DNA from: Naegleria gruberi
Taxonomy: Eukaryota
Assembly: GCA_000004985.1 (NCBI GenBank)
Contig: GG738892.1
DNA: 64,000 nt
Direction: 5' to 3' (one strand)
Below, one piece after another: positions 285 to 39,764 of this stretch (the first letter of the stretch is position 1; each line of letters begins with the position of its first letter). The notes below the pieces were generated by a model. It was not told where the DNA came from. It did not search any database and was given only the letters and a program-made list of their open reading frames with translations. A program made the position numbers and the translations under genes.

Positions 285-355
285 TGCGTCGACCGGGAAT
301 TGAACCCGGGTCACGGCGATGGCAACGCCGTATTCTACCACTAAACCATCGACGC
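285..355 (-). tRNA. tRNA-Gly (anticodon GCC)
   Basis: Reverse complement folds as a cloverleaf: acceptor GCGTCGA/TCGACGC, D-arm TGGTTTAGTGGTAGAA, anticodon stem CGGCG/CGCCG with loop TTGCCAT (GCC), T-arm GGGTTCAATTCCC. About 71 nt, no intron, discriminator A. Confidence 0.85.
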
Positions 356-479: not shown

Positions 480-3400
480 ATGGATGATCAGTGGCCCACC
501 CACCAAATTGACAAGAATGATGATCAAACTATTGATGTGGTTGGTAACCTAAAACCGAAGGAAGCGATCAAGGAGGTGAACAAAAAAATTAAACAATTAG
601 AGAATGAAATTAATTCCCACTTGTCCTCGTTTGATGTTAGTTTTGACTTTGGAGAAAATGGAGACTTCCAAAGACTGTTAGTTACCATTAGAAAGTTTGG
701 TAAAACATTTGCTAACGAAACTTTTGTAGCTTGTACAGACAAAAGCTCTCCAAGTATGATCTTTAGGTATTTGGAGGTGGCAGAAATATCATCTGCTAAA
801 AAATCAAATGAATTTGGCATTGAAAAGACACAATACTATTATGTAAGTAATTATACTAGTGGCATGTCAAATTCATTTCAAAAAGTTATTACAAGATATT
901 TCAAAATATCTCAAAAAGAATATGAATATGGAAGAATCGCTATTCGGCAAAGCAAAGAAAATGTTATTTGGTAAAACTAAGAGTGAACAGCTTTTAGATG
1001 AGTTGGAAATTATTTGTAAAGACAGATTCTATGAAGTCAACAACAAAGTGCTAGAAGAAGGTGTCGATGAAATTTGTGATTTCATCCAAAACAAAAAGAA
1101 AGAAGAAGCAAGAAAAATATTTCTTTCTCTATTTATGATGGTTTCTAAAAATCCTGACATATATTCTAATGTCAATCTCTTTCAAGTGGCATGTACTCAT
1201 TTATTACTGACACTATATGTTGCTAATAATCCACCTCCTGTTGTCTTTAAATGGATAAGTGAAATTCTCGTTACTAGTGCAAAAGATTACTCCAAATTTG
1301 CCCATAATATCAGGAAAATAATGTTGCTGAGTGGATTGAAAAACTTTGAGTTTGAATATGTATTGGTATTGCATCAATTTAAAAATAATCATTTTGATCA
1401 ATGGAATATATTTTGGAAAAAAGCCAGTATTTCAGCTGAGCTGCACGATTGGGTTTGTGAATATTATTTTAGAGTGTTTCCAAATAATTGGTATCATTTG
1501 GAAATTACTTTCTCCTCAATTATTCAACCTCAAAACTCCAAATATTTACCAATTTATGTATCTAGTTTATTGCAGAGATCACCAGAATATTTCACCAATT
1601 TTTGGAAGAACTATCTAAATAATTTAGACATGACAAAAGAACCACTCTACATATTTTGTCTGCAATTTTTATGCTATAACATACAGACATTCTTAAATGA
1701 TCTATTACTCAAGCAAAAGCTCATTTCTAGTCTTGCCACAAAAGAAATCCTTGATTTCTCTGAAAATACTCTTCAGTCTATTCTCCAAACAATTCAACAA
1801 TATGGAGTGGATTACTATTTGGGTGCACTGGAATTCTCACTAAAGAATAATGCCAAATCTGATAATCTGACCCCCAAAAACATGAGATTAGCAATCAAAT
1901 ACTTTCCAAATCAAGTGTCTAATGAAACTTTCATGATATTTTTAACAAACCAGATGAAAAAGAGGGCCAGTGTTGATGTAATATTCGAAATGATCGATAG
2001 TTACATGAATGTGAACGGATTGGATTTACAAAGAGTATTGTCCTTTTACACGAGTTGGTTTGGTTTAACAAAAGATTTCAGACATTTACAAATTTTTGAT
2101 ATTCTTGAATCAAAATCTATTGAATCTTTCATTTCTGAATTGGATGAAAATTCAGCGGAAACAATTGTATTGGCTTTATCTAACCTTTTTAATGATACAT
2201 CAGCAAAGGAGGCAAGACTGAAGTCTGCCAAGCAATTGTTCTACTTAGGATCTGATAATCTAACCAGACATCATTATGTATTTTATAAGGCATTTATCAA
2301 TTCATTGTTAGACTCTACTGATATGTTGGAAAGACTTAGAATAGTTTCATTAATCGCTGATGACATGTCTACTTCAAAGCTATTTTCGACTTTTGCTCCA
2401 TACCTTTTAGAAAATGCAATTGTAAATAGGGAACAAACAGGAATCAAGTTTTTCCTTGATTCTGAAAAGTACCTCAACATATTTATTAACACCTGGAAAC
2501 ATAATCAAAATTCAAAGGAATGGAAAGAGTATCGTGACTTATTCGTAAGTGCGGTAAAGAATCCTCTTCAAGACTTGACAGATAGCATTTCAGACAACCA
2601 GATAACGATCAAGGATTTGGAATTGTTACAAAAAGAAAGATATCGTTTTAATTCACTGATCGAGAAATTAGATTTAGCTAAAGTGAATGGAATAGAAAGA
2701 AAGATAGAAACTTCCAAGTCTGTAGAAAAAGATATTCAAGAATTGACTAAAATTATTTCATGGTTAAAAAGGTTCCCACTGCTTATGGAGTTTACACAAC
2801 ATTTATCATTACTGGATGAAACATCTACACTCTCAGAATTGGAATCTAATGTTGAAAGCCTCAAGGCACAACTTGATTATATTGATAACAGAAGAGACTT
2901 GATAATTTTTCTCCACGATGAAGACAGTCTATTGTTCCACTCTCTATTCAAAAAATTTCTTCATGACTCTGGGGAAACTGGTGATATTATAGCAGTATCT
3001 GAAATATTTACAAGAGTGATTGAATTCTTGGAACACATTAATATGCAAAATATTCAAAGTTTGAAAGAGTATGAGATTTTAGATCTTTCTAAGCAGCTGA
3101 GAGCTAAAGGAAAAACTCTCTCTGGTGAGATTGAACTTCTATCCTCAGTTCTTAACAAGACTAGTTCAGGAGGTCAATTTAATATCAATTTGGAGGTTTT
3201 AAGAAAAGCACTAAACTTGGAAGAGCTTGGAACTGGATTAGAATATTTTGTTGATTGTATGCAAGACTACAATATGGAGCTTGTTAAAGAAGAGAGTTTC
3301 AATAACATAAAAAGACTCAAAGATAGATTGTACGGTCTGAGAGACATTCCTCTTTCGGAAGTTGAAGTAATTCTTGATGTTTCTAATGAAGCAATGCAAG

Positions 3401-6400
3401 GTTTGGACGGTTATCACACCAAATATTTTAAAGATTTATTAACTCCAGAGTCAAAAGGATTAATTCAATTTTTGAAGGATAATTTGTTAAGCTTTGAAGA
3501 TTCTATCAAAGTAGTAAGGACAAGAAGTAGAAACTCTAAATTCCACGAAGAAATAGTGAATTCTTTAATTATTGCCAAAGAACTGGTCTCTCCTTTACTC
3601 AATCAAAAGATCACCTTCCAAGATTTTAGAAATAAGATTCTTGCCTTATTCAACAAGGAAGAGGATCTTTTCAAGCTTAAGGAACTTCAAGTTGTTAACG
3701 AAAATCTTACAACCATCAAAATTTTATTCTCTAGTACAGCCACTATCCACCTTGATGATGTTTTTGATAGTGTCAGGGCAATAATAGAAAAGGGAAAGTT
3801 TATTTCCACACCAGATTCATTAATCGTTAGCTACGAAGATAAAGAAATATCAGGAGAAGAGCTAGTTGATTTGGTTAGGGTTGCTATTTTCAGATCTTCT
3901 GATTCAGAAAATGACCAAAATATCAAGATGAAACATGATTTACAAAACTTTATATTGCTTTATCAAATGGCAGAGCAAATTCAGTCAACTATCAAAGAGC
4001 TAATCAAAGAGGGTTATCCTAAATACCATGATCAAGAACGAATCGAAATTAATGAAAGAATGGAAAAATTAGAGCTTGAAAAGAAGAACAATGCTTTTAA
4101 TGCAAAACTTGAAAAATGGAAAAAATCTATTGAGGACCTTGTGGAATCACAACCATTAGTTTTAAATTTATCAAGAAGTCAACTAACAAAATTTGTTTCA
4201 CTCTTCAAGGATAGTTTAGAAAGTGAAGAAAGGGAATGTCAAAGTCTTATTCCATATATAATGCTAATTGTTAAAGAATTGTTCAGAGATAATCTGAAGC
4301 ATTATCCAATTACAGAAGAAGGATTGAAGGAAATTTTGAGTGGTTTCAAAAGTACAACAAGTGCAAAAGAGATTTTGAAGCTTTCTGGTGAATTTGTACA
4401 GAAAATTATTGAAAGTATTGCTGGCGATTTAGATCAAGAAAGAAATAACTACGAAACCAAAACACTGTATGATGTGAATGGCTCACAAATACCAATTATT
4501 CTACTTAAAATATTCCAAGAAAATATCATTCAGTACTCTGGTGATAATAGTGTTTTGATAGTCAACAATTCCAATATCTTCTACTGTGATGAAAGTACAA
4601 GGAAAGAGGACATTCAATGGTTTTGTAAAAGAAGGAAAGCTTTCCCGGAGCTCACTTATGCTCTGGTTCATGTGAACAAGTTAGTGCTCAGTGTGAAGGA
4701 AGAGTTGATCAAGTTTGAGTTTGAAGCTCATGAAAAGAACCAAAAGGTAGGATTGACTACTTTGATTTTCACATCAGACGCATCTAAAGAAGCATTCTCA
4801 TTTATTGAAACAAAGAATGACATTGAAGGTATGGCCCAAAAGAAGCCAATTATTAGCAAGTACCTTTCAGAAAGTTGTAAGATAGAGAAATTTGAGACTG
4901 TTAAGGGAGAATCAGCTTCTGGTAAGACTCGTTATATTCAATCAGAAAAACGAGATAATGAGGTCTATGTGAGAATTGCAGTACATGAAGAATTTTCATA
5001 TGACTATTTTTATGAACAATTGTGTTCTTATGATTTTGAAAATTCACCAAAGGTTTTAATTCATTTTGATGTTTCCTATGTTTTTGAATTGAGAAACTTT
5101 GAATTATTCTTACTTGAATGGATCTTTGGTAGATGCTTGCAAAGTAAGAAGGGTCAACTGGTTGATACTTGGGGCAACACTAAAGAATCAATTCGTATTT
5201 TTGTTGAAATACCAAGTAGCTTTGAAAAAGTCAAGTTGGATTTAATATCTTTAATTGAGACTACTATTGGACCAAAATCATTACATTCAGATCTTGCAAG
5301 TTTTGATTTTGGAGAGGAAAAAACAAGATATGTAGCCTCAATGTTTACTTTGTTCAATTCAAAAAAGATTAATGATATTAATCGTTTCTTGAATGTTGAC
5401 AAGAATTTAGTCTCGGAAGAAAAGTCGAGACAAGTGCTTACTCAATTTTTCAGCGTAAGCAAGGTTACAAAAAGCCATTCATTGAGAAAAATATTCATTG
5501 AATTGATGTATGAAAGGTTAAGAGGTCTTGAAAATTATCATATTAAGTTTTTGAAATTGAAAGAGTCCAACGAGTTTGGTCAAGATATTTACGGAAATGC
5601 TCAAGAATTAATTTTCACAATCAATGGAACTCTCTTCCCTGTATTTAAAGAAGAATGTGAGGTGATGACAGATAATACTATTGAACGATGCTGGAGTGAC
5701 CTTCCCGTAGTATTTGCAGTACCAAATCTTACAGATGATATACCCAATTATAATATCGTCAGATGTTCTAAATGTAGCACTACTAGAGAGTATATTGGCA
5801 TGCAACCACTTGATGTAAAAACTAGCACACTAGCAGAAATACGTTCAATATTGACATCCTCTTTCGAAGTTAATTCCATAATTGAAATTTGTGAAAAGAC
5901 CAACTATTTGCTAACTAAGGACTTTGCTATCAAATTATTTTTGTTAGATGAAAGAAGAAAGGTTGGCAGATCTGTTATTATTGAAAGTGAAACTGGTGTG
6001 GGAAAAAGTGAATTGCTTCGATTTTATTCAAATATTTTAAATTCCAACAACAAATTATTGCCTGATATAAGATTTGAGCTAAGGAAGTGGCTGTGTGAAA
6101 CTGTTGATCAATTCACTTCCAAGAATAATATTCAAACAGAGGTTAGAACTAAAAATATGGACAAATGTAGATCCAGAGAATATATTGTAAAGCTGTTGAA
6201 AGAAACAGAAGAACAAGTTGGTCAACAGTTGTTGCAAGAAATTACAATTTCTCTAGTAAGCGCAGTTAAGAAAATATTTGATGAGTTCAAATTAATTGAA
6301 AAAACAGACCTTATTAACTCCACTTTTGAGGCTCTTGAACAACAGAATTATGATTTATGGACAGTGGATATGATTGCTGACTTTTTAGCTCAAGCTGAGT

Positions 6401-9400
6401 CAGCAAGACCTGAAAACTCTATTTATTTCAAGATTTTGATGCATAGTGGTATAAGTTCACAAGAAATAAGACAAACTATAAGAGATATCGAAAGAAACAC
6501 TTTGAGATTAATCAATTCAGGATATCAAGACTTAAAGGTTGTTGTTTTCATTGATGAGTTGAATACAAGCAGTTGTATGGGCATTATGAAAGAGCTATTT
6601 GTGGACCATACATTAGACGGTCAATTGTTACCAAAATCTATCTTTTTTGTTGGTGCCATAAATCCAAAATTGCAAAATGAAGAATATGTAGTTAACGAAA
6701 TTGCACCATCCATGAAACTTATCAGATTTAACTATGCAGATCTCTCTAAATATCAAGAGCAAGAATTTTTGGCTCTACTGATCGAATTAGAGCAAAAGAA
6801 GCGAGATGAACATGAAGGATTTGTACATGATTTACAAACATTCATTTTATCTGCCCAACGTTTTGTTGCAGAGTCTAAACAATTGGATAAGAGAATAAGA
6901 GTTTCAATCAGAGATTTAACAAGGGCATGTAAACTATATTGGTTTTTGAAGGATAATGAAGTTCTTTACTACTCTGCTAATCTCTCCATAGAACAATGTC
7001 ACATTATTTGCTTATACATGGCCTTAGCACTGTCCTATTATTTCAGATTACCTTCTAGTGAGAGAACCAAATTTGAGGAAATGATTGATAGAGAAGCACA
7101 TACTCAGGTGCAATATGGAATCTTTGCATTTTCTCAAGTTGTCTCAGAGCAATTAGGATATTTCTATCAAAAAGCAAAACAACGCGGATTTATTCCTCCA
7201 GGTATTGCAAGTACAAAAGCATTATTAGAAAATTTCTTCACTATGGTCATTGGAATTCAAGTTGGAATAGGAATCAGCTGTGTTGGTCCTCCAGGAAATT
7301 CAAAGACTTTATCTTACACTATTGCAACACAAAAGAAGAAGAGTCTTTTTGTTGGAATGAAAACTGTTCATACCCAACATTATCAATGCAATGAATTGTC
7401 TACTGCTAATGAAATTGAATTAGTAGTAAAGAGCCAAGTTGAAACTAGACGAAAGTATGAAAGAGCAGGAATGGTTAACGAAATTTGTAGTGTATTAATT
7501 GATGAAGCAAGTCTTCCAATAGAAAAGAAAAATTCGCTCAAAGTTCTTCATTACTATCTTGACAAACCAACTATTAGCACAGTTCTCATTTCAAACAATT
7601 TATTGGATGCAGCTAAATCTAATAGATGTATTCAAATTGTTCAACCAGAGACTAGCTTTGAGGATTTGAGAGCACTTTGTCAAGGTTGTTTAATGTTAAA
7701 TGAAGATGACATTAAGCCAAATTCAAGAATAGATAGAATTATTACAGCATTATGTAAATCATTTAAAGAGGTCAATTATGTGCTTACTAGCACAATTGTT
7801 AAGCAACATAATGGCACTGGTGGAATTTTCCATTTGAGAGATTTCGTCTACTTCTTAAGAATGCTATCTAAGAATAAGGGTAATCACAAGGAGGTTTTCT
7901 CTGGTAACAATATTTACTATTGTTTACAACGTAATTTTAATGGTGTTCCAGAAAATGATTTCCAAAAAATTCAAGAGCTTTTCTTGACAAATATTAACGA
8001 AATGTTAGGAACAAAGATTCATATCGAAAAGGAAAAGATCAAGCAATATATTGATGTAGTATATGATAGTATTCACGATAGTTTATCAAAATACGATGAT
8101 CCAAATCAATCTCACTACAGACATACTATGATTATCGATCCGAGCCAAGCTCAGGCCTCTATTAAGCTTTTAACATCCAACAATATAATTGACCAATCCA
8201 AGACAAAGGTTGTTTACATTAGCGATTTTAAGGGTGATACAAATGATTTGTCCCTTTCTCAAGAAATTAGTGAAGTCAAAAATTGTATGGAACTTGGAGC
8301 ACCGGTAGTATTGGTAAATTCATCTGCCATTTCTACAAATTTCTTTGACGTTTTTAACAAACACTTTACCAAGGTAAATGATAGATACTTTGCCAATGTG
8401 TCTATTAAAGGAAAAACTCACCCATGTGAAATTAATTCCAGCTTCCACTGTATAGTCCACGTTCCTATTGCACAATACAGAGAGTTACCTTTGCCATTCT
8501 TGAATAGATTTGAGAAATACATTATTGGTGCAGAGAGAGTTTTGAAGAGTGATCTTTTGGTTGAAAAAGAGGAGAGCAAGAAGGCAATTTTCGATCACAT
8601 CAGAAGAGGAGTTAATGACTTTGTTCGTCAATTTGATGCTAGTACATTCTATGGTCTTGTTGAAGATGAAACAGTGGATTTATTAATCAAATCAATCTAT
8701 CAACAATCCAAAGACTCTATTCAAATTAAGAAACCACTAACAATTAAGAATAATAACATTATAGAACTATTGAAAGAAAATGGTATGGAAGATAATATCG
8801 ATTTAGAGGAAGAGGACGAAGAAATTTCCATCAACAAACTGAGGAGCTACATTAGAAAGATTAACTTTCAACTGTTGCAAATTGCCAAACCTGAAGATAT
8901 TTTCCTCAGAAGAAAATTCATTCCAAAATCCTACCTAGTGGAGTACCTCACAAAACAAGAGCACTTTTGTACAATTTCATTTTTGAAGAATGCCATAGAC
9001 CAACATTTCAAACAATCCACAACAAATAATTCAAAGTACATTCTTTATACCAGACACTCAAGTGGTATTCACACTCTCAATGATACTGACCGTTTAAAGG
9101 AGATTACCTCCGTTGCATGTACTTCTGAACCTTTGAAGTCATGTGTGAACAATCCAAGTGAAATTATTACCCTTGCTTCACTTTCTTCATTCTCTTCTCA
9201 ATTAGAATTCCACAGATTCTTGGGAGAGTTTGCAGCTGATCATCAAAAGCTTGTTTTACTATTAACCATTGATATGTCAATGATTTCTAAAAACACTGTG
9301 AATTTTGTAAAATTCAAGATTGAGAATATTCTTTCTTCTCCAATGAAGAAGGTTAAGAATATGACACCTTTCGTTTCTCTTATTCTCTACTTCCCTCCAG

Positions 9401-12400
9401 AGTCTTCTCATTTCAATGCTGCTTACGATAGTATTTTCTTAGGGTGGGACTATTATTACATTGACAGTTTAAGAGGAGACCTTGGTGATGGTCAAATTAG
9501 TCAATATAGAGATAGCAGATACTGGTTTAGTGTTGCTGTTGGATTACTGAAGGGATTCCGTGCATCTGATAAACAGGCCTTCCAAAATTCTTTCATTCCA
9601 TTATATAACAAGCTTTTGGAAGATTATATTCGTTCAGATAATACAGCCGTTGCATCTGGATCACTTAGTCCATTTTTCATGAGAAGAAATATTAACAAAC
9701 TGGTAGACAAGAAAAAGTTTATTCTGACAAATATTAACAAGCTTGAATTATTGAGAGACATTGTGTTGAACATGTTTGCTGATAGGTGGAATAACCAGTT
9801 CCTTTCTCAACTCGTTCAAAAAATATGTACCGATATTACCAGTGGTAAGATAGTCAATGGTATCATTCAAACAATTTCCTATGAACTTTCGTCTGTCCTA
9901 GAAGAAATGATGTATCCTATCACAAGAAAATTAATTTATCTTACACCATCCGTACAAAAGATTCTCAATGTAGAAGATCAATCTACACTTTGTTTACTAC
10001 GTAAATTGATAGAGGTTTTCATAACAACAAACAAGAAAAAGAGCAAGAGCTCAGATATTTTACATGTATCAACCTATCAAAGTACAAATGAACACTTGCC
10101 TCTTTCTACTCTCCTTATTGAAAAGATGATTCTAAATGAGAAATCTGATAATCTAGACGAAGTGGTAGAAATGATTGAGAATGACAAGGAAAATTTTGAA
10201 AAATTCCGTCTCGATATGATTTCTTTCTATTTTGAAAAAGACATTACAAAAGAAGACCAAGCAATAAGATTAGTTGATATTCTTATTTCCCCTATTTGGA
10301 ATAGTGCAGAGGGAAAGAAGAGTATGAGACTACTCTCACATCTTTCACAAACCAAAGTCAAGAATAGTATCAAAATCTTACTTAACGTTCTTTCCCAATT
10401 CAAGTCTATTAATTTCTTGACAGACGAATTCAAAAAACATTTGCAAGGAAAGCAACTCCATGAGTGTTTGGAAGTCATCTTTACTTACATTCTTGATTAT
10501 GTATACAAAAATATAGGAACAGCTCTTGAAGAGAAAGACTTGGATAGTATTAATAGTTGGATGAGCGAACTTTCATCTATCAACTTTATGTATATTAAGG
10601 ATATTGCACCTAAATACTTTAAGAGTTCAAGATTCTCCATTCTATTCTTGGTCTACTATGTGTTGAAAGGATGGGTTTTAAGTGAAGAGCAAATTGAATA
10701 TTTGTGGAAAGGAATTACAGAACTATACAAAAATCCAACATACCTACCAGATAACTTTATAGATATTTATAATTGCTTCAAAGATACTGTTACAACCTTC
10801 TTGGACCCTAATCAACAATCTATCTGGATTAATAATGTTACGAGATTTGCCTTTGTGCATATTATTGACATTTGGTCGGCTCCATCATTGACAAACTTTT
10901 TCACAATTATTTCACAATACGAAAAGGATGAAAATTCAATTTTCAAACAACTTAATATTGGCTTGATAACAAGTATTACAAAAACCATAATGGCTCGTTA
11001 TCTGCAAAACAAATTCAACCAAAATATGACGAATGTAGTTGAGCAAGAATTGAACAATTACTCTGATGAAAACTTTGTCCCAGAAGAATTATCTTCAAAG
11101 AAACAACCATTCTCTGTTCTGCTTCTTCAATCATCATATCTTTCTCATCACTCTCAATCAAAATGGGAAACATTCCTTCCACTCTTTACAAGACATCAAG
11201 AGGATGGAGGCAATAGTAAGCTTTCCAAACTTATCACTCAAGCCAACAATATTTTGCTGATAACAAAGCTCTCGAGTCATCTCCTCAAAGATGATGATCC
11301 ACAAAAAACTATTGAAAATATGGATGCAGAAACATGTGAATTGATTACTAATGTTATGAAACAAGAAAACATGGCTCTTTATTTCCTTTCAAGATATACT
11401 TCTGATGTTGAGTTGGAGATGATTCTTACTACAAATAGAGGAGAATTGGGAAGAATAGGACTGGCAAATTTCCATATACCATCAATTAAGAAGAATTTTA
11501 AATCTCATCATTTCTCATTCATGCATGATAATAATCAAGTGTACACAGATTTGAAAAGACATATTGAATCTAACAATATTCAACAGATACATAATTTTAT
11601 CAATACCAATGCTGCCCAGCATAAGTATTTCATTAGAATGTGTTTGATTGTAATCTCGTATAATTTCTACTTTTTGGAATGTAAATCTTGTGATGCTGTA
11701 TTGGCTATTTTACAAGACAGAAATGTATTGAATACTCTTAGTATTGATGACTCTGAGTTGAAGGCATTCGTATTCTTTGCTACTAAACCAGTATCTCTTC
11801 CAGTTGAGAAACAAGATGACTGGTTCGCATCATATTACTTCTCTCAGGAATTCATCAACTCTAACAGGGATAAGATGCTGACTCACCTCCTAGCAAATAT
11901 TACAGCAACTAATGTGGGCGTTCCAAAAGAGAAGAATCACTTGTATAACAGAATGTTTAATCCACAAGTATTGGCCAATTCATTCGGTCCTGGAAGTACA
12001 TATCAGGATAGGAACTGGGATTGTGGATATACTAGCTCTGGATACAATATTAATAACATTGAAAGCCACAATATTATGAATAGAAATCAGACATACCACT
12101 CAGCTTTGAACTCGCTCACTTGGGCTTCCTTTGTAATGTGCGTAATATTCGATCCAGCAAAGAATGAAAATGCTGCCAAAGGTGGACATATGTGTAATTG
12201 TATTGATGATGTCAAATTCAGGCCCAATTTAAGCAATTTGGAACAACTTCAAACCTATATTAAGATTAGGGCTGATACTTTCTGTTCTATTTTTGCTCAT
12301 TCACCTAATATTATTGGAAATGTGGACCCAATTATTTTCTTTACCTCATCTCTCGAGGAATTCACCAAGCAAGCACCAAACAGTAATGATTGTTTTGGAT

Positions 12401-14469
12401 TCTTTGCAAATAATAATACTCCAACCATTAGAGCATATGAAAACTTTTGGATGAACTCATGTTTCATTCCAACACTCAATCGTTATGCTAACATTGTTGG
12501 TAAAATGAATGCTGGTCAGAAACTTCTTCAAGATATTGGTCAATTCAAGGAAAGATCGTTGGCTATTAGAAAATGTGTTGATTTATTCCCTTCAAGAGAA
12601 AATATTCTTGCTTTCTTCTCCCAAAGATATACTGATATTGAAGATAATGCTGAGCTCATGACAGTAAGGCAAATAGTCAAACATAAGGACTGGTTATTGT
12701 TTAGTTATTATTTTATTGACTTTTTGAGTTTTTATGTTAAATTACACAGAGGTTTGAATGGCAAGATTGAAAGAGACTCAATTCATATGACAGTCAAGGA
12801 TGCATTAACACTCATTACCAAAGATAAGAGTAAACAAGAGGAAGAAGCCATCTACGAAAGTTGGGAATGCTTTAAGAAATCTTGGAATATTGTATCAGAA
12901 AAACAAGAGAGAAACATTGTTTGTCAACATGCTAACCAAGCTGAAATACCAATTATTGATGAAAACTCAATTCTCTCTCATCTGCTCTATGTTGAAGGTG
13001 GTAATAATGAGATTGGAACATTACTTTTAACAATTTATAATGCTCAATCAGATATTCAACAAGGACATTCTTTCCCAGATACCATTGATGCAGCCTATGT
13101 TATGGAACTTGATGATGTCTTTTACAAACTATTATTCAGCAAATTTGAGGATGATAACTTCTTTGAAAATATTCAATACTATGTAACAATCAATAACGGA
13201 GATATTAACTTTGATTGGAAGTCATTGGAGAGTTATTTTGTTGAATCACTTTCTAAAGGAAGGCCAAGACTTTTGGTTAAAAAGGATCAAGTTATTAGTC
13301 CACAAGCCATCTGCAAGTTCAAGGAGGATATCCCAATTGAGGAAGATTTACCTGATGAGATAATTCAAGAAGATAGCCTTTCTCTGGATACTTATGCATC
13401 TGAACTGAATACCTTGATTGAAAAGATGAATAGTATGGATATTTCATGGAAAACATTCGACAATACCAAGAAGAAATCATTTATGAATTCACTCAACTTC
13501 AGAGATACTAAAAAGATTTTACAAATTGCCAAAGATACATGTCAAGCTGCCACAAATTTGATTGGAAAAGTTCCCTTCAAATCATTTAGTATTGTCAACT
13601 CAGAAAGGGAAATTTTAGGATTCTCTGAATTTGTATTGGACATTATTTACAATAGAGATGAAGTTAAATCTCTATACGATAAATTCTCCTCCACGTTCAG
13701 AATTCCAATGTCAACCTCAACAAAGGAGAAATTTGAGAGAATTACTCTCTATACCATGAAAATGGTAGAAACATCCAATCCAGAATTGGATAATTTCCTG
13801 TCTGATTTGAGAACTATTGCTACTGTTATTTACAACAATGAAAAGGATATTGTTAATGCATACGCTTCAATGACAACTGCTAGTCTTAGAACCGTTTTTG
13901 AGTCTCAAATTCAAGTCAAAAATCACGATAATTTAGCTCAAATCCTTCCAAACTATTTCCTTGTTAAAAATTTGGTTCCTTACATTGAAAATATTAGAAG
14001 ATTAATTGGTAAAATTGAGCTCAAGAAATCTTCCATGAAAACGGAAAATTACCAAGAGCTTGTCCCTGATAATCTGAAAACAAGACCTGAATCTCCTATT
14101 GATCCATTGGACAGTTTGATTTCAAAAGTAGAAGAACCTGAAGAAGAAGAAGAAATTCCACAACCTCCTCCAATGTTTAATGTGATGCCACTATCTAACC
14201 TACCAATCATGCGTCCAAACATGCCTTCTAACAATTACACAATAGATCCAAATCAAATGAACAAGATTAAGAACCTTATGGAACAAGCCCAGAACGAGAA
14301 GCAAATTTCTCTACTTCTGCAACCACAATTATTGGATAATAATCTTCTATTGAGATTGGTAGAATTATTGGAAGAGGCAGAAATGTTGACAGAGGAAGGT
14401 AAAGAACTGCAACAAGCAATTTCAACCAACCAAACTATTATTTTACAAAACTTTAACAAGTTGAGATAA
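480..14469 (+). CDS. Giant (~4650 aa) protein with two dynein/midasin-class AAA+ ATPase modules (possibly RNF213/mysterin-like). Proposed structure: exon 1 480..842, 43-nt intron 843..885 (GTAAGT...AAAAAG), exon 2 886..14469.
   Basis: A 13.6-kb uninterrupted ORF in AT-rich DNA. First AAA module: Walker A 'ESETGVGKSE' (near nt 5990), Walker B 'VVVFIDELN', sensor 'FVGAINP' (AAA_5/dynein-midasin style). Second module: 'GPPGNSKT' (near nt 7290) with 'SVLIDEAS'. An upstream 121-codon ORF (480..842) ends exactly at a GTAAGT donor and joins in frame to the main ORF through an AAAAAG acceptor at 884-885. Confidence 0.6.
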
Positions 14470-16240: not shown

Positions 16241-16360
16241 ATGGCTACGGCCATATCACGATGAACGCACCTCATCCCGTTCGATTTGAGAAGTTAAGCA
16301 TCGTCGAGCCACATCAGTACTGAGGTTGGAGACAACTTGGGAACCTGTGGTGCTGTAGTC
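16241..16360 (+). rRNA. 5S ribosomal RNA (120 nt), copy 1
   Basis: Matches eukaryotic 5S hallmarks: ACGGCCATA..GAACGC..GAAGTTAAGCA..TAGTACT..TGGGAGAC..CTGGGAA..GGTGCTGTAG. It is immediately followed by TTTTT (a Pol III terminator). Confidence 0.85.
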
Positions 16361-16365
16361 TTTTT
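16361..16365 (+). terminator. Pol III oligo-T terminator of 5S copy 1
   Basis: TTTTT run directly after the 5S 3' end. Confidence 0.55.
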
Positions 16366-18425: not shown

Positions 18426-18545
18426 ATGGCTACGGCCATATCACGATGAATGCACCTCATCCCGTCCGATTTGAGAAGTTAAGCATCGTCGAGCCACATC
18501 AGTACTGAGGTTGGAGACAACTTGGGAACCTGTGGTGCTGTAGTC
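18426..18545 (+). rRNA. 5S ribosomal RNA (120 nt), copy 2
   Basis: Identical to copy 1 except for two substitutions in the 5' third. Followed by TTTTT. Confidence 0.85.
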
Positions 18546-18550
18546 TTTTT
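18546..18550 (+). terminator. Pol III oligo-T terminator of 5S copy 2
   Basis: TTTTT after the 5S 3' end. Confidence 0.55.
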
Positions 18551-33636: not shown

Positions 33637-35226
33637 TTATTGTTGTTGTTTAAGGAAATCATATTTTGAGTATTGTTGAGAGAATTTTTGTGCATTTTGC
33701 TTTTCTTCCTCAAATCTTGGTGCTCTCAATTTGGCTTCGTTTGGTGTCTTTTTCATAATTCCACAAAGTACTTCCTTTCCAAACACAAAACTGAAATCTT
33801 CATCAGAAATTGGATGGGCAAAACCACCATTCACTCCAAATTCTACATGGAAGTAAGGGAAACCTTTAGGTATGGATCTGTGAATTCCCTTTCCTTTTGT
33901 TTCAATAAATCTCTTATTGTCACTCCATTCACTGGCACTCAAATTATAAGCAGTATTACCTAGTTCTAAAATTGCATTCTTAAAGTAGGATGGAGCAACT
34001 TCCATCTGTTGCTCACTCACAGGTATGCACTCAATGAAGGCATGCTTCTCGTGTTTCATTGAATATTGAGTTACAGTCTCTATAAAAATAATATCTCTTC
34101 CCTGCTCAACAAATAGCTTCTTGAGAGCCAGTTTGAATTTCATAATTTCATCATAAACATCCTCATCAGTTTCTCTTATGGAAATCGTATGTTGAATTGG
34201 TACTATACAGCAGTGACCTTCAGTAAGGCACCCAAAAGGAGAGATTGTAAGGTATGCCTTGCTGCCAGTAGCAATAACCAGATGATTCTTGAATCTCTTA
34301 TTTTCCACACAGAATGCACAATTTTCCACATTATTTAGCTTTTTCAATTCGAACATTTTGTTCTTTTGAAGGAATGCTTTTTGTTTTTCTTCCAAAGTTT
34401 TTTGTTTCTTCTTTGATCTTCTATCGTCACCAACCTCGAATGATTCTGATCCATTACCCTTAAAGAAATCAGAGTATTGATCATCATATTCAGAGGCATT
34501 TCTATTGGATGATCTGTACAATGAATCTTTTGCAATATTATTTGCAAGATTTCTATCAAAATCTTGAACTGAATGTTCCTTAGCTTCCAAATAAATGTCT
34601 TGAAGAGATGAATCGTCTCTATTATTAATGTATTTTCTTCCTTGTGCTCCTCCATCAATTCTCCTTCCCTGTGAATCAAATGAAGGCAATTGTGCAGCTG
34701 CAGAGCCATGCTTTTTGTAAGTTTCTTTGCATTGTCTAATTTCCTTCAATTGATCACTCAATTCTCTGTACAATTTCATGTCTTTTCTATCTTCAGCATC
34801 GAGTGCTCTTTGGGCAAGACTATTCAATTCTTCATTGGACATGAGTGCATATTTCATAAAGGTTTGTTCATTAGTATTTCCAAATCTTGAAATATTGACA
34901 CTGGATGATTCACTCCTAGATTCATTTCTATACTTTTCATAAATCTTTGTATTAGGAGCAAGATCAAATTCTGGTTTTCTCATATTTCCATCCAGTGCAA
35001 AGTGTTTGTTTCGATGTGATTCTCTTTGTGCCATCTTTTCAATGGTCTTTTTATCATATTCAGTAGCAACATTCTTTGATGAATCTCCCCAATGTTCTTT
35101 CAAAACAGCATCTACAGAAACACCAGCCTCTTTAGCTCTTTCCTCTGCTCTCTTCAATGCTCTAGCTTTCCAAGAACTTGATGAAATATCGGAGGAAGAA
35201 GAAGTTTGAGACAATGATCGTGCCAT
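33637..35226 (-). CDS. CWF19-like protein 2 (CwfJ-family splicing factor)
   Basis: CwfJ C-terminal domains: CAFCVEN...HLVIATGSKAYLT...GHCCIVPIQH (HIT-like) and FIETKGKGIHRSIPKGFPYFHVEFG. The adjacent upstream ORF 35249..35506 (K/E/S-rich) is probably the N-terminal part, offset by one frame. Confidence 0.7.
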   Translation of the reverse strand: MARSLSQTSSSSDISSSSWKARALKRAEERAKEAGVSVDAVLKEHWGDSSKNVATEYDKKTIEKMAQRESHRNKHFALDGNMRKPEFDLAPNTKIYEKYRNESRSESSSVNISRFGNTNEQTFMKYALMSNEELNSLAQRALDAEDRKDMKLYRELSDQLKEIRQCKETYKKHGSAAAQLPSFDSQGRRIDGGAQGRKYINNRDDSSLQDIYLEAKEHSVQDFDRNLANNIAKDSLYRSSNRNASEYDDQYSDFFKGNGSESFEVGDDRRSKKKQKTLEEKQKAFLQKNKMFELKKLNNVENCAFCVENKRFKNHLVIATGSKAYLTISPFGCLTEGHCCIVPIQHTISIRETDEDVYDEIMKFKLALKKLFVEQGRDIIFIETVTQYSMKHEKHAFIECIPVSEQQMEVAPSYFKNAILELGNTAYNLSASEWSDNKRFIETKGKGIHRSIPKGFPYFHVEFGVNGGFAHPISDEDFSFVFGKEVLCGIMKKTPNEAKLRAPRFEEEKQNAQKFSQQYSKYDFLKQQQ

Positions 35227-35629
35227 TGGATTAATATGTGGATTTAATTCAAGAGAGGAAGCTGATGACTGATGATGGTTTTTCTGCTTCTTCTTCTTCC
35301 TTTGATCGTTGATTATTGTTATTGAATATATCCTTCGGAGGAGCTAACATCCAATCCTCTCTTGTTGATTCTTCTTCATGTTTTCTTTTATGTGATTTTT
35401 CTTCTAATGATGCTGCTGATGAATTGTATTCCGAGGAGGTTGTTGTTTTACTATCTGATGAAGAATGCTTAGGTTGAGGTTTTCTCACTTTAATACCTCT
35501 CAACATTTTTTTATAATTAAATTAAAATTCATAACACCTTCAAATAATAAGAATTAATATTCTAAATAATATTAAGTAATATATTTAAAATAAATAAATT
35601 TAATTGATTATAAGTAGTAGGGGTTATTA

Positions 35630-37795
35630 TTATTCATTACAGGAATAGTAGAATCTAGAAATACTGTATCTACCGATGGAAGCTGGACAATTGTGAGAGT
35701 CATAATATTCCTGGATGGAATTATGATCACAGGCATTTCTAGAGTCCAAATCTGTTTCCACAACAACGTATCTCAATAAGCTATTACGTTCGTTGCTCAA
35801 ATGAGAAGTGAATTTTGTCATTCCTTTCCAATGATCTCTAGTTTCATAATCGAATACAATATCGATGCCATATAATTGTTTCAAATAATCAATTTGTTGT
35901 TCCAAATAGTTGTATTGAGAAAATCCTACCAACAACAAATATTCCAATTTTGGAAGTGACTTGGAATTCAAGATTGATTCAATTATGACTTTAGATGTTT
36001 CTTCTGCTGTCATTACTTCTTTTTTATCATCTGTTTTACGGTGGTAGTATCTTTCTTCACCACATCTTAATCTCAAATATCTTACACCTGGGAATGAGCA
36101 ATTATTAAAGAATGATTTCCACTCCTCATTTGGATATTCCTTATAGGCGGCTGATGCACTATAGTCAATTGATAAAAATCTTATACTATCAGGGAATGAA
36201 TAATTTTGCAGTGGTGTAAAGTATAACACATTGGCCAAGTTCAAATATATAGATTTCGATAATTTCTTTTCAATGTTATCCATCTTGATATCGGCTTGTG
36301 TGAGAGTATGTGCAGCCTTCTTATTATCTGCATCACAGGTAATAAAATTGGCCCATCCACCAGTTCCTTCAATTTTAACACCAAGCTTTGGAGAATTATC
36401 GTCGCCACTATGTTTAGTTCTTCTGTATCTGTATGGATTGGCTGCTGGTTGTTCATCTGCCCAACTTTCTAAATAATTAGAAGTTAAAAGCACATCATTA
36501 TCCTCACTCCAGTATTCATCATTATTTTCAGAGTCCATATGATTGAACATGTTCAAGGAGAGAATAAATGATTGAGTCATGAACATTTCAAATGCTGTAC
36601 GATGTGGTTTGAAAAGGGTTTCATAATCCTCAAATTCAATATCAAACCCATCCAATCTGGATTTAAGCATTGCTGTGCAGACTTGCTCATCGCTATACAA
36701 TGGAGTTTTAGAAGGGGTTTTCTTCTTCTTCTCCTTTTTCTTTATGGTTGTTTTAACAGGTTTTGGAACAGCAACCATTGAATATCTTCTCTCGTCCATC
36801 CTCTTTGAGAGAGTTGAACAATCATAAACCCATTGCTTACTAACAACAAATATACCTGCATTAATGGCTTCTTTTGTCTTGTCAGTATTCGAAAAGGCAG
36901 CAACTGGTTTGTGTTAGACCAAAATACCAATTTGAAACAAATACTTACTCATGTGAGTGGTTTTACCAGCTTGAAATTCTGGAGTGTATTTGGCTCCCAT
37001 TTTCATTGCAGTTTCTCTGAGGGTTGTTCTTTCTGGATTGACTATTCCACTAATTGCAATAGTGACACCAGGTAAAATTTTAGAAATATCAGAACAATAG
37101 TCTCCATCTAAGAAATCATCCTCTTCCTCCTCTTCTTCCTCTTCCTCCTCGTCATCGTCTCCACCATCGCTCATGTCATCCATCCAAGAGTTTTCCTTGT
37201 CAACAGCACTTTCTAAATCATCAAGTGGTTTACCTCTTTCAACAGCTTGAACAACATTTTGAATACGTCCCATCTCTTCTATTTGTCTTCTGTTCAAATC
37301 ACCACAACCTAATTGCAAATTATCAATAGTGTCAGTTCTAATCCAATAGGCCAACTTTTGGAAAAACACAAATCCTTGCAACCAAAATCTCTCCATAAAT
37401 TGTAAATCTGCATCATTAGCTTTTCCTGTCACTAATTCAAAAGTTCTCTTATCGACCATGGAAAGTTTTGCCAAGGCTTTAATATTGTCAAAAGTCGGAA
37501 TGAATTTTGTCAAGTGGCTCACACCTTGCTCAAGAGCACTCAAATCATACAAATTTCTTTTGGTAGCAGTTTGTGTTGGATCTCTCTTAATTGTTGTCAC
37601 ATCAACATTATGATAGAAATCGTTCAAATCACCCACAAGGAAGGAAATTACTTGTAAAACAAGTTCATTCGGTAAATCACCAAAAAGACCACTCGATGAT
37701 GATGATGAAGACAATTTAATTTTCTTGCTTCCTTCTTGGCTAGACTCACCAAGAGAGAGCTTTCTCTTATTTTCATCATGACTGCTGCCGTGCAT
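35630..37795 (-). CDS. F-box + BRCT domain protein with an LRR-like C-terminal region. Exon 1 36949..37795, 45-nt intron 36904..36948 (GTAAGT...AAACCAG), exon 2 35630..36903.
   Basis: F-box LPNELVLQVISFL. The BRCT domain is split by the intron (...GAKYTPEFQAGKTTHM|IAAFSNTDKTKEAINAGIFVVSKQWVYDC) and continues in frame into the ORF 35630..36799. There is an acidic DDDEEEEEEEEEEEDD run. Confidence 0.7.
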
Positions 37796-37963
37796 CTTCT
37801 TGTAACGGCGTTTTTTTTTTAGAGTTCCACTTTTGTGTGGCTAAAAGATAGCAGTGATTACAATATAATCTAATCTATGGAATCTATTTTTCAAGAACAG
37901 ATCAATGTTTAGGTGGATCTTATTGAGATTTGTTGTTCAAGAGATTTAAAGGAACTAAACAAC
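37796..37963. promoter_or_regulatory. Putative bidirectional promoter shared by the two divergent F-box genes
   Basis: A 168-bp spacer between the minus-strand start at 37795 and the plus-strand ATG at 37964. It contains a T12 run and an AACGGCG motif. Confidence 0.35.
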
Positions 37964-39564
37964 ATGAATTTGTTTTTTGTAAAATCAAAAAAAAAAATGT
38001 TAGAAAATAAGAAGAGGAAATTGCTGCTCGATCAATTTTCTTCACAATACCTCAGGCCGAGCAAGTATTTGCTAATGTATCGTAATAATGACCTCGAGGA
38101 GGAATCAGAAGACCAAGCGAATAATAAACATGCCATTTACGAAAATAATGATGACAATAATGGTAGCAATGATGAAGCAACAATTAAAAGAATGGAATTG
38201 AATGATGAAAGAATGGATTCCGCATCATCATCTGCATCAGAAGAAAGAGTAGGAGCAGTAGGAGCAACAACACTGGAAAATAGATCCAGCAATAGAAAAT
38301 CAATTATGGAAATTGGAAATGATTGTTTCTTTGAAATTTTAGGCTTTTTGGAATTATACGAATTTCGTTCTTGCATTTTGGTGAGTAAAACTTGGGCCCG
38401 ATTGATTATTCCATTCTTTATGGATTTGGCAATGGAAATTTATGAAAATGATGAACATTTAGATAGTTTGAGAAAGTTTGGACAGGAGAATGATGATTTA
38501 ATATTGAAGGATGGTTTATATACTGAAGGTGCCACTTGGAAACCATTTACTTGTTATAATGATGATCAGATTGGGGATTTTAGTGTAAGCTATGGACATT
38601 GTTCAGATGACGATGATGTTATTGAGCTTGATGAGTGTGAATTTCACAGAAAATTGATTCCTTTTGGTAGTCCACTTTGTAAAGGAACCGTTAAGGAACA
38701 ATTTGAATTGGTTCAAGACAAAATAGATTCAGAATCTTATAGAATTCTTATTGAGAAACAACTTGGAATACCAGAAAAGGAACAGGACACTTATGAATTT
38801 AATCCTTTTGTAATATTTGATGAAATAGAGCGTGAAAAGGGTATGATCGAGCCATATCTTCATGAAATTCAAGAAGCAAAATGTAGAGATAATGATGACG
38901 ATAACTTTAATGTTTTCTCTGAAGAGCATGTTCCTTACGCAATCAGAGCTGGAATAACACGATGTACAAAACGTGCAGGTTTGTATTTGAATCATTTTCT
39001 TTTCTGAGCTTTCTAATAGGAATATTATTCCACGAACCGTCTGCTATTGAGGATGCTTTTTACCAACTGAAAAGATTCATTTATTTACTGATTAAGGATG
39101 CCTATGAAAGTAAATTCCCAAACAAGACACAAGATTTGCAATTTACAGAAACATATGAAGACTACTCACTCCACTGTTTCGAATATGAAGATGATTTTTT
39201 AAACAGTGATCTTATGGAAGATAGAGACCTAAAGTTGAACTCACAGGACATTCTAGAATCATTTACAAAACTAACAGGTAAGACATTCTTTTTTGCAGAT
39301 GCCCGATTGGAAGCTGCTTTATATGCAGGAAATCCTGAAGCAGAACCAATCGAACAAGGTAGTGATGAAGATTTGGAATATTTTGGATATTCTTTATACG
39401 AATCTGATATGAATGAGTTTCCAATTGTTGATCTGGATGATTCTTCCCCCAATGACGAACAACAGGCCACCGAAGAAGAATCTCTTCAATATCACCTTAG
39501 AAGAATGCTCAGAGAGCAATCATACGAATGTATTCTAAACTATTTCGAATCCACATCAGACTAA
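37964..39564 (+). CDS. F-box-like protein. Exon 1 37964..38978, 41-nt intron 38979..39019 (GTTTGT...CTAATAG), exon 2 39020..39564.
   Basis: F-box-like IMEIGNDCFFEILGFLELYEFRSCILVSKTWARLI. Two ORFs in different frames join cleanly under the proposed splice (...CTKRA-G-ILFHEPSAIEDAFYQ). The C-terminus is acidic. Confidence 0.5.
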
Positions 39565-39691: not shown

Positions 39692-39764
39692 CGCCCACCG
39701 TGGGGGTCGAACCCACGACCACAAGGTTAAGAGCCTTGCGCTCTACCGACTGAGCTAGACGGGC
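39692..39764 (-). tRNA. tRNA-Lys (anticodon CUU)
   Basis: Reverse complement is GCCCGTCTAGCTCAGTCGGTAGAGCGCAAGGCTCTTAACCTTGTGGTCGTGGGTTCGACCCCCACGGTGGGCG. It has a canonical cloverleaf, anticodon loop CTCTTAA and a GTTCGA T-loop. Confidence 0.85.

What the first reader, a model, noticed from the sequence alone, without database searches (positions are those of the whole stretch)
35630..39564. Divergent F-box gene pair on a 168-bp bidirectional promoter. One member is an unusual F-box+BRCT+LRR-like fusion.
The minus-strand gene (35630..37795) encodes an N-terminal F-box followed by a bona fide BRCT domain that is split by a 45-nt intron and continues in frame into what the ORF track shows as a separate 389-aa ORF. 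F-box/BRCT combinations are rare. The plus-strand neighbour (37964..39564) is another F-box protein, spliced through a GTTTGT donor. Both carry long acidic tracts. Head-to-head arrangement of two SCF substrate adaptors suggests co-regulation.
Basis: seen in the sequence. Interest (0 to 1): 0.5.

Follow-up and report, generated by a model that had tools for sequence, protein, structure and literature searches.

The report
Naegleria LRR protein with inserted BRCT
A Naegleria gruberi gene encodes a genus-restricted protein with an F-box-like start and a leucine-rich-repeat end, and a DNA-repair-type (XRCC1-like) BRCT domain sits in the linker between them; the brain-eating relative N. fowleri has cleanly deleted that domain, and the "paired F-box genes" idea does not hold up.

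Summary
The window is Naegleria gruberi. Both splice models are right. The minus-strand model equals the public 706-aa "BRCT domain-containing protein". The plus-strand model equals NAEGRDRAFT_81006, except that the annotated start is 37997, not 37964.

The BRCT is real (Pfam E=3.7e-11). It is of the XRCC1 BRCT1 type (PDB 2D8M, E=2.4e-20) and keeps the two poly(ADP-ribose)-pocket residues (R256, K291). It lies between an acidic and a lysine-rich tract in the linker of a family found only in Naegleria and Willaertia.

Orthologues with the BRCT and the same intron position exist in N. lovaniensis and in a metagenome contig. The syntenic N. fowleri orthologue and two paralogues lack the BRCT precisely.

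The plus-strand neighbour has a sub-threshold F-box, belongs to an unrelated family, and is not adjacent to this gene's relatives in the two other Naegleria species checked. Co-regulation is therefore unsupported.

Verdict: an uncommon domain insertion in a lineage-specific putative SCF adaptor. Interest is moderate.

The parts
36949..37795 (-). Exon 1 of the BRCT gene (residues 1-282 plus the first base of codon 283). It covers the N-terminal helical domain, the acidic tract and the first half of the BRCT.
   Evidence: Sequence read and translated. The spliced product is identical to the NCBI N. gruberi protein.
36904..36948 (-). 45-nt phase-1 intron inside the BRCT domain (GTAAGT donor, CTAAC branch site, CAG acceptor).
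   Evidence: The same position and phase are found in N. lovaniensis (L004, about 8934..8995) and in metagenome contig L005. The BRCT alignments are gapless across the junction.
35630..36903 (-). Exon 2 (residues 283-706 plus the stop codon). It covers the second half of the BRCT, the lysine-rich tract and the LRR-fold C-terminal domain.
37637..37675 (-). F-box-helix-1-like motif LPNELVLQVISFL (residues 41-53). It is the most conserved N-terminal motif of the family (LPxEl...I..FL.G).
   Evidence: hhalign of the family N-terminus against 10 Pfam-validated F-boxes gives probability 80%, P=1.4e-5, 17 columns. Family alignment. Paralogue P0018 has a sub-threshold Pfam F-box-like hit on this helix only.
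37421..37534 (-). Second F-box-like segment (residues 88-125, ...SHLTKFIPTFDNIKALAKLSMVDKRTFELV). It could supply F-box helices 2-3 after an insertion of about 45 residues.
   Evidence: It aligns with the region of family member P0032 that hits Pfam F-box above threshold (26.9 bits). hhalign of this segment alone against the F-box profile is weak (probability 11.6%, P=0.0026) but in register. AlphaFold models helices at 102-111 and 116-123.
37112..37165 (-). Acidic linker tract (about residues 211-228, DGGDDDEEEEEEEEEEEDDF), just upstream of the BRCT insertion point.
   Evidence: Translation. An acidic tract is kept in the BRCT-less relatives P0003 (N. lovaniensis) and P0004 (N. fowleri) but is absent at this point in P0013 (the N. 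gruberi 45895-like paralogue).
36782..37084 (-). BRCT domain (residues 238-323, interrupted by the intron). It is of the XRCC1 BRCT1 type. S249-G250, R256 and T289-x-K291 form the predicted phosphate/PAR pocket.
   Evidence: Pfam BRCT E=3.7e-11 and PTCB-BRCT E=5.2e-11. PDB 2D8M (human XRCC1 BRCT1) E=2.4e-20, 37 of 91 residues identical. The R335/K369 equivalents are conserved. It is 61% identical to the N. lovaniensis BRCT, against 44% for the N-terminal and 37% for the C-terminal region.
36719..36742 (-). Lysine-rich tract KKKEKKKK (residues 337-344), just downstream of the BRCT. It is a putative nuclear localisation signal.
   Evidence: Translation. It is kept in the BRCT-less relatives P0003 and P0004. 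The NLS role is an inference.
35633..36718 (-). C-terminal domain (residues 345-706): a helical cap followed by about 6-7 irregular beta-alpha leucine-rich repeats (FPDSIRFLSI, FPGVRYLRLR, LPKLEYLLLV ...).
37796..37996 (.). Intergenic region between the two divergent start codons. It is 201 bp with the annotated start 37997, and 168 bp if 37964 is used.
   Evidence: No promoter evidence is obtainable with these tools.
37997..38978 (+). Exon 1 of the neighbour NAEGRDRAFT_81006 (an alternative in-frame ATG lies at 37964).
   Evidence: The exact 508-aa product is in NCBI.
38979..39019 (+). 41-nt intron (GTTTGT donor, CTAAT branch site, AG acceptor).
   Evidence: The paralogue alignment is gapless across the junction.
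39020..39564 (+). Exon 2 of NAEGRDRAFT_81006.
38318..38407 (+). Sub-threshold F-box-like segment of the neighbour (IMEIGNDCFFEILGFLELYEFRSCILVSKTWARLI).
   Evidence: Pfam F-box E=0.0044, 17.3 bits against a cut-off of 20.5. hhalign of the paralogue alignment against the F-box profile gives probability 66%, P=5.5e-5, 31 columns.

Best explanation
The minus-strand gene belongs to a protein family found only in Naegleria and Willaertia. The family's build resembles an F-box/LRR substrate receptor of an SCF ubiquitin ligase. It has an N-terminal helical domain that opens with an F-box-like helix (LPxEL...FL.G), probably an F-box interrupted by an insertion of about 45 residues. A disordered linker with an acidic and a lysine-rich tract follows, and then an irregular leucine-rich-repeat domain.

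In one Naegleria sub-lineage a single BRCT domain of the XRCC1 BRCT1 type, carrying its own phase-1 intron, was inserted into that linker.

The BRCT keeps the residues that in human XRCC1 bind poly(ADP-ribose) (R335/K369 correspond to R256/K291). It is also the best-conserved part of the protein. Its most likely role is therefore to dock the protein onto poly(ADP-ribose) or a phospho-mark at damaged chromatin. The lysine-rich tract would serve as a nuclear import signal. The LRR domain would engage a partner or substrate, and, if the F-box is functional, Skp1-Cullin would ubiquitylate it.

Shown here: the gene model, the BRCT and its type, the conserved pocket residues, the LRR fold, the family distribution, and the presence/absence pattern. 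Inferred: PAR or phosphate binding, nuclear localisation, Skp1 binding and ligase function.

The head-to-head neighbour is an unrelated, N. gruberi-specific gene. The pairing is incidental.
For: Gene model:
- The product is identical to the public protein.
- The intron position and phase are conserved in N. lovaniensis and in a metagenome Naegleria-like contig.

BRCT:
- Pfam hit above threshold.
- The best solved relative is XRCC1 BRCT1, E=2.4e-20.
- R335/K369 were mapped from the mutagenic oligonucleotides in PMC4538820. They align to R256/K291.
- The BRCT is 61% identical between N. gruberi and N. lovaniensis, against 44% and 37% for the flanking regions.

Insertion into a linker:
- The alignments show the BRCT exactly absent between the acidic and lysine-rich tracts in P0003 and P0004.
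- The N. fowleri gene is a single exon with no room for a BRCT.
- N. fowleri P0004 and the BRCT-bearing N. lovaniensis P0011 share flanking genes and are 70% identical.

Family:
- 33 representatives among 1.84 billion proteins. All named ones are Naegleria or Willaertia.
- Only 2 of the 34 aligned members carry a BRCT.

LRR fold:

F-box-likeness:
- hhalign P=1.4e-5 on helix 1.
- Member P0032 has a Pfam F-box above threshold in the homologous N-terminal region.
- P0018 has a sub-threshold F-box-like hit.
- The full-length model has pTM 0.75, with the N- and C-terminal domains modelled confidently.

Context:
- A paper on PARP gene-family evolution mentions N. gruberi (PMC2964712). The paper was listed but not read in detail.
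Against: - No Pfam F-box hit in this protein at E<=1.
- HMM profiles of the N-terminal region find no F-box protein in the PDB at E<=10.
- The hhalign match covers only 17 columns, and the second segment is weak.
- F-box/LRR proteins are not ranked above other LRR proteins in the fold searches.
- The BRCT itself was modelled with low confidence, because the alignment holds only two sequences there.
- A single BRCT with an intact pocket can bind phosphopeptides, PAR or DNA, so the ligand is not determined.
- The BRCT is dispensable in N. fowleri and in two paralogues, so it is not essential to the family's core function.
Confidence: 0.5

Rival explanations
1. It is not an F-box protein. The N-terminal helical domain plus LRR domain is a Naegleria/Willaertia-specific scaffold with no link to Skp1/Cullin. 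The LPxEL...FL motif is only a convergent amphipathic helix. The inserted XRCC1-type BRCT recruits this scaffold to PAR- or phospho-marked sites for a non-ubiquitin function, for example as a repair or signalling adaptor.
For: - No Pfam F-box hit.
- No F-box hit in the PDB profile searches.
- The LRR fold matches NLR, TLR and RanGAP proteins as well as it matches F-box proteins.
Against: - Helix 1 matches the F-box profile at P=1.4e-5.
- P0032 has an above-threshold Pfam F-box in the homologous region.
- The order 'F-box-like N-terminus, then LRR' is the classic FBXL layout (established knowledge).
Confidence: 0.35
2. One reading: two F-box substrate adaptors are co-regulated from a shared 168-bp bidirectional promoter as a functional pair.
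For: - The genes are head-to-head with 168-201 bp between their start codons.
- Both have some F-box-like signal.
Against: - The two families are unrelated.
- The neighbour is not next to the relatives of the BRCT gene in N. lovaniensis or N. fowleri, and no synteny is seen beyond the gene itself.
- The neighbour has only N. gruberi paralogues among named hits.
- Short intergenic gaps are normal in this window.
- Neither F-box passes Pfam's threshold.
Confidence: 0.08
3. Annotation artefact: the BRCT belongs to a separate or degenerate gene that has been fused to its neighbours by the gene model.
For: - ORF finders split the gene into two ORFs of 293 aa and 389 aa.
- The N. lovaniensis model is truncated.
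Against: - The first BRCT half is in one continuous ORF with the N-terminal domain, and the second half with the C-terminal domain.
- The same architecture and intron position occur in three genomes.
- The N. lovaniensis truncation is a 1-nt frame change, and the downstream reading frame stays intact.
Confidence: 0.03

Closest known systems
XRCC1 central BRCT domain (BRCT1; PDB 2D8M)
   Same: It is the best solved relative of the BRCT (E=2.4e-20, 37 of 91 residues identical, gapless except for one position). The S-G motif and the R335/K369 phosphate/PAR-pocket residues are conserved.
   Different: The host protein is not XRCC1. It has no XRCC1 N-terminal domain and no second BRCT. The BRCT is a single domain embedded between an F-box-like helical domain and an LRR domain. 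PAR binding was not tested.
FBXL-type F-box/LRR substrate receptors (SKP2, FBXL5/17, KDM2A/B, Dia2, TIR1/COI1/D3)
E3 ligases that read PAR or phospho-marks at DNA damage: BRCA1-BARD1 (RING + BRCT), RNF146 (WWE), CHFR (PBZ), FBXW7 (WD40 reported to bind PAR, PMC6486556)
   Same: It is the same conceptual design: a ubiquitin-ligase component joined to a module that reads PAR or phosphorylation. For FBXW7, the title and abstract were seen. The other examples rest on my own knowledge.
   Different: The analogy is functional only and no homology is implied.

Membership tests
BRCT domain (PF00533) | Match to the Pfam BRCT profile above the gathering score | tested here: met
   43.5 bits against a cut-off of 21.3, E=3.7e-11, residues 238-311, profile positions 3-77 of 78.
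XRCC1 BRCT1-type (PAR-binding) BRCT | Closest similarity to XRCC1 BRCT1 among solved BRCTs | tested here: met
   2D8M scores E=2.4e-20. The next best hit is Rad4/TopBP1 at 6e-10.
XRCC1 BRCT1-type (PAR-binding) BRCT | Phosphate-binding pocket residues (human R335 and K369, plus the S-G motif) conserved | tested here: met
   R256 and K291 align with R335 and K369. ISG aligns with LSG. The same residues are present in N. lovaniensis.
XRCC1 BRCT1-type (PAR-binding) BRCT | Actual binding of poly(ADP-ribose) | not testable with these tools
   Needs biochemistry.
F-box (PF00646 / PF12937), minus-strand protein | Match to a Pfam F-box profile above the gathering score | tested here: not met
   No F-box family at E<=1. 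No F-box protein in PDB profile searches at E<=10.
F-box (PF00646 / PF12937), minus-strand protein | Helix 1 motif LPxE-hydrophobic-hydrophobic..I..(F/Y)L | tested here: met
   hhalign probability 80%, P=1.4e-5, 17 columns, against 10 F-boxes that each pass Pfam.
F-box (PF00646 / PF12937), minus-strand protein | Helices 2-3 (the ...L..l..VcK.W..l... segment) contiguous with helix 1, forming the three-helix Skp1-binding unit | tested here: inconclusive
F-box (PF00646 / PF12937), minus-strand protein | Binding to Skp1 | not testable with these tools
   No complex prediction or experiment was available.
Leucine-rich repeat fold | Beta-alpha solenoid that matches solved LRR structures | tested here: met
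Leucine-rich repeat fold | Match to a Pfam LRR profile | tested here: not met
   No LRR family at E<=1 in this protein. There is only a weak LRR_4/FNIP signal in the Willaertia member P0036.
F-box, plus-strand neighbour (NAEGRDRAFT_81006) | Match to a Pfam F-box profile above the gathering score | tested here: not met
   17.3 bits against 20.5, E=0.0044. Paralogues P0008 and P0009 give no hit.
F-box, plus-strand neighbour (NAEGRDRAFT_81006) | Profile-profile similarity to F-box across helices 1-3 | tested here: inconclusive
   hhalign probability 66%, P=5.5e-5, 31 columns, including the (V)xK.W motif.
Bidirectional-promoter gene pair | Conserved head-to-head arrangement and shared regulation | tested here: not met
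   The arrangement is absent in N. lovaniensis and N. fowleri. Expression could not be tested.

The most novel reading that the evidence does not exclude
Naegleria evolved a ubiquitin ligase that is directed by poly(ADP-ribose) or phosphorylation, by inserting an XRCC1-type BRCT reader into the linker of a lineage-specific F-box/LRR substrate receptor. This module has been shed repeatedly, including in the pathogen N. fowleri. That would point to a difference in DNA-damage or PAR signalling between pathogenic and free-living Naegleria.
Probability: 0.2. Interest if true: 0.55.

Novelty: new variant of a known kind. Interest (0 to 1): 0.35.

Why it matters
If the F-box is functional, this would be an SCF adaptor carrying a BRCT reader. 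That is a domain combination I could not find described in the literature searches. It would be an independent solution to coupling PAR or phospho-signalling at DNA damage to ubiquitylation.

The clean presence/absence of the BRCT among close orthologues makes a natural experiment on what the domain adds. It is present in N. gruberi, N. lovaniensis and a metagenome Naegleria-like contig. It is deleted in the syntenic N. fowleri gene.

The case is also a tidy example of a domain inserted into a disordered linker, with a conserved intron inside the inserted domain.

In practical terms, the gene is already annotated as BRCT-containing, and the function remains untested.

Tried and rejected
- Pfam on the spliced proteins gave no F-box for the BRCT protein.
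- HMM profiles of the N-terminal region, built from 3 and from 23 sequences, found no F-box protein in the PDB and returned only chance hits.
- The full-length search was swamped by the acidic tract. A chimaeric query without the low-complexity regions and the BRCT was needed to find the orthologues.
- I looked for a hidden BRCT in or near the N. fowleri and N. lovaniensis P0003 genes with tblastn and found none within +/-10 kb.
- I looked for synteny of the window with those loci using tblastx. Only the gene itself and the 5S rRNA matched.
- I tested whether the two divergent genes are paralogues. They are not.
- I tried to trace the BRCT to a close donor gene. Apart from the protein itself, the word-indexed searches turned up only one BRCT relative, the XRCC1-like ENA protein P0002 (39% identical over 12% of the query), and none in the BRCT-containing query.
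- The idea that the BRCT is N. gruberi-specific, which I held, was rejected once P0011 and L005 were found.
- Literature searches for an F-box/BRCT architecture or for this Naegleria gene found nothing relevant.
Full report
**Origin and gene models.** The window has about 33-35% G+C and is densely packed with genes that have very short introns.

The minus-strand ORFs 36914..37795 and 35630..36799 join through a 45-nt intron at 36904..36948. The intron has a GTAAGT donor, a CTAAC branch site and a CAG acceptor, and it is phase 1. Without splicing, the reading frame ends at a TAA inside the intron. The spliced 706-aa product is 100% identical over its full length to the NCBI protein 'BRCT domain-containing protein [Naegleria gruberi]'.

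The plus-strand ORFs join through a 41-nt intron at 38979..39019 (GTTTGT...CTAAT.AG). The product starting at 37997 is exactly NAEGRDRAFT_81006 (508 aa). The version starting at 37964 is not in the collection. The distance between the start codons is thus 201 bp as annotated, or 168 bp with the upstream in-frame ATG.

**The BRCT.** Pfam finds BRCT (residues 238-311, E=3.7e-11, 43.5 bits against a cut-off of 21.3) and PTCB-BRCT (E=5.2e-11) in the spliced protein. The alignment runs straight across the exon junction.

Among solved structures the best match by far is the central BRCT1 domain of human XRCC1 (2D8M, E=2.4e-20, 37 of 91 residues identical). Rad4/TopBP1, REV1, ECT2 and FCP1 follow. 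In XRCC1 this domain binds poly(ADP-ribose) through a phosphate-binding pocket, and the R335A/K369A double mutant disables it (PMC4538820). From the mutagenic oligonucleotides given there, R335 is the R of QNPFR and K369 is the K of NTPKY. These align with R256 (NPER) and K291 (NTDK) of the Naegleria protein. The preceding S-G motif (ISG/LSG) is also kept.

**The rest of the protein and its family.** A query without the BRCT and the low-complexity tracts found N. lovaniensis C9374_010864 (P0003, 602 aa) and N. fowleri FDP41_009596 (P0004, 630 aa). Both have no Pfam domain. They align along the whole N- and C-terminal parts but lack the BRCT precisely. The gap lies between the acidic tract and the lysine-rich tract.

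The N. fowleri gene is a single exon. In both species tblastn finds no BRCT remnant in the gene or within 10 kb.

A profile search of 1.84 billion representative proteins found only 33 members. Every member that carries a name is from N. gruberi, N. lovaniensis, N. fowleri or Willaertia magna. Only one other member has a BRCT: N. lovaniensis C9374_004370 (P0011). Its BRCT is 60-61% identical to that of N. gruberi.

The P0011 locus has an intron at exactly the same codon and phase inside the BRCT (THV|IAA against THM|IAA). Its annotated protein is truncated only because of a 1-nt frame change at about L004:9757-9769. The downstream 150 codons remain open and are 68% identical to N. fowleri.

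A metagenome contig (ENA ERZ27315067, L005) encodes a third BRCT-bearing orthologue with the same intron position.

P0011 and the BRCT-less N. fowleri P0004 share flanking genes: a sulphur-transporter-family gene, two further genes upstream, and an Arf GTPase downstream. They are 70% identical. N. fowleri has therefore deleted the BRCT, intron included, in frame.

An NJ tree places the N. gruberi BRCT protein next to a BRCT-less N. gruberi paralogue, represented here by P0013, which is at least 90% identical to NAEGRDRAFT_45895 (96.5% bootstrap). It places P0003 next to the P0004/P0011 pair (77% and 100%). Taken at face value, this means one gain before the Naegleria species split and at least three losses. 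The tree is simple, so this count is an inference.

The BRCT is the best-conserved segment. It is 61% identical between N. gruberi and N. lovaniensis, against 44% for the N-terminal and 37% for the C-terminal region. This argues for purifying selection where the domain is kept.

**Structure.** AlphaFold2 with the 34-sequence family alignment gives pTM 0.75. The N-terminal helical domain (residues 41-70 and 91-205) and the C-terminal domain (345-706) have pLDDT mostly 85-97. The linker and the BRCT are modelled poorly, because only two sequences cover the BRCT.

**Is there an F-box?** The evidence is mixed.

Against:
- No Pfam F-box hit at E<=1.
- No F-box protein found by profiles of the N-terminal region in the PDB.

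For:
- The motif LPxE(L/I)...I..FL.G is the most conserved N-terminal feature of the family.
- hhalign of the family N-terminus against an alignment of ten F-boxes aligns residues 38-54 with F-box helix 1, at probability 80% and P=1.4e-5, but over 17 columns only. Each of the ten F-boxes was verified to pass Pfam.
- About 45 residues later, the conserved IPPFENIK.L..L...NK segment aligns in register with the whole F-box, weakly (probability 11.6%, P=0.0026).
- The homologous segment of family member P0032 passes Pfam F-box (26.9 bits against 20.5).
- Paralogue P0018 has a near-threshold F-box-like hit on helix 1.
- The model has helices at 43-54, 102-111 and 116-123 that could form the three-helix unit around an insertion.

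I rate a functional, Skp1-binding F-box at roughly even odds.

**The neighbour and the 'pair'.** NAEGRDRAFT_81006 has a sub-threshold Pfam F-box (E=0.0044). hhalign supports it moderately (probability 66%, P=5.5e-5, 31 columns).

Its named relatives are two N. gruberi paralogues, NAEGRDRAFT_80779 and NAEGRDRAFT_82197. The remaining hits are unnamed ENA metagenome proteins (P0006, P0007, P0010). No N. fowleri or N. lovaniensis homologue was found.

It is unrelated to the BRCT protein's family. It is absent from all three loci examined in the other two species, and their neighbouring genes differ from those in the window. Short intergenic spacers are the rule in this window. Nothing supports a functional pairing. 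Co-expression itself could not be tested.

**Mechanism proposed.** This is a lineage-specific FBXL-like adaptor whose inter-domain linker acquired an XRCC1-type BRCT.
- The BRCT docks onto PAR or a phospho-epitope. This is inferred from the conserved pocket.
- The KKKEKKKK tract probably acts as a nuclear localisation signal. This is inferred.
- The LRR domain binds a partner.
- If the F-box works, Skp1-Cullin ubiquitylates that partner at the marked site.

This is analogous in logic to BRCA1-BARD1, RNF146, or the reported PAR binding by FBXW7 (PMC6486556, seen). The main rival is the same picture without any SCF link.

**Novelty and score.** The gene and its BRCT are already annotated. The following appear undescribed in the literature searches:
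- the XRCC1-BRCT1 type of the domain;
- the F-box-like/LRR host family confined to Naegleria and Willaertia;
- the conserved intron inside the BRCT;
- the repeated, precise loss of the BRCT, including in N. fowleri.

It is a new variant of known kinds of domain and architecture, not a new kind of system. Interest is 0.35.

Noticed in passing
window 16243..16361 and 18428..18546 (+): Two 5S rRNA genes about 2.2 kb apart (Rfam 104-105 bits). They are about 90% identical to a stretch in the N. fowleri locus L002:19559..19690.
   Followed up: yes
window 39692..39764 (-) and 285..355 (-): tRNA-Lys(CTT) lies 128 bp downstream of the plus-strand gene's stop codon. tRNA-Gly(GCC) lies near the start of the window.
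   Followed up: partly
window 859..14469 (+): A single uninterrupted ORF of 4536 aa, encoding a giant protein. It was not examined.
   Followed up: no
window 33637..35226 (-) and 35249..35506 (-): The downstream neighbour is a CWF19-like protein (CwfJ_C_1 E=2e-32, CwfJ_C_2 E=8e-23). The 85-aa ORF just upstream on the same strand may be its first exon, separated by a short intron.
   Followed up: partly
L004 about 9757..9769 (N. lovaniensis PYSW02000020.1): A 1-nt frame change truncates the annotated C9374_004370 protein at 572 aa. The remaining 150 codons are intact in another frame. It is either an assembly error or a very recent pseudogenising mutation.
   Followed up: partly
P0015 (Willaertia magna ABK040_015932), residues 499-521: One Willaertia member of the family carries an A20-type zinc finger (Pfam E=4.9e-7), a ubiquitin-related domain, in its C-terminal part. 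This is a second example of domain acquisition in the family, and a hint of a link to ubiquitin.
   Followed up: no
P0006 / P0007 (ENA contig of 8245 bp): An ENA metagenome contig carries 98-100% identical copies of parts of both window genes, called as prokaryote-style ORFs. This suggests N. gruberi-like DNA in an environmental assembly.
   Followed up: no
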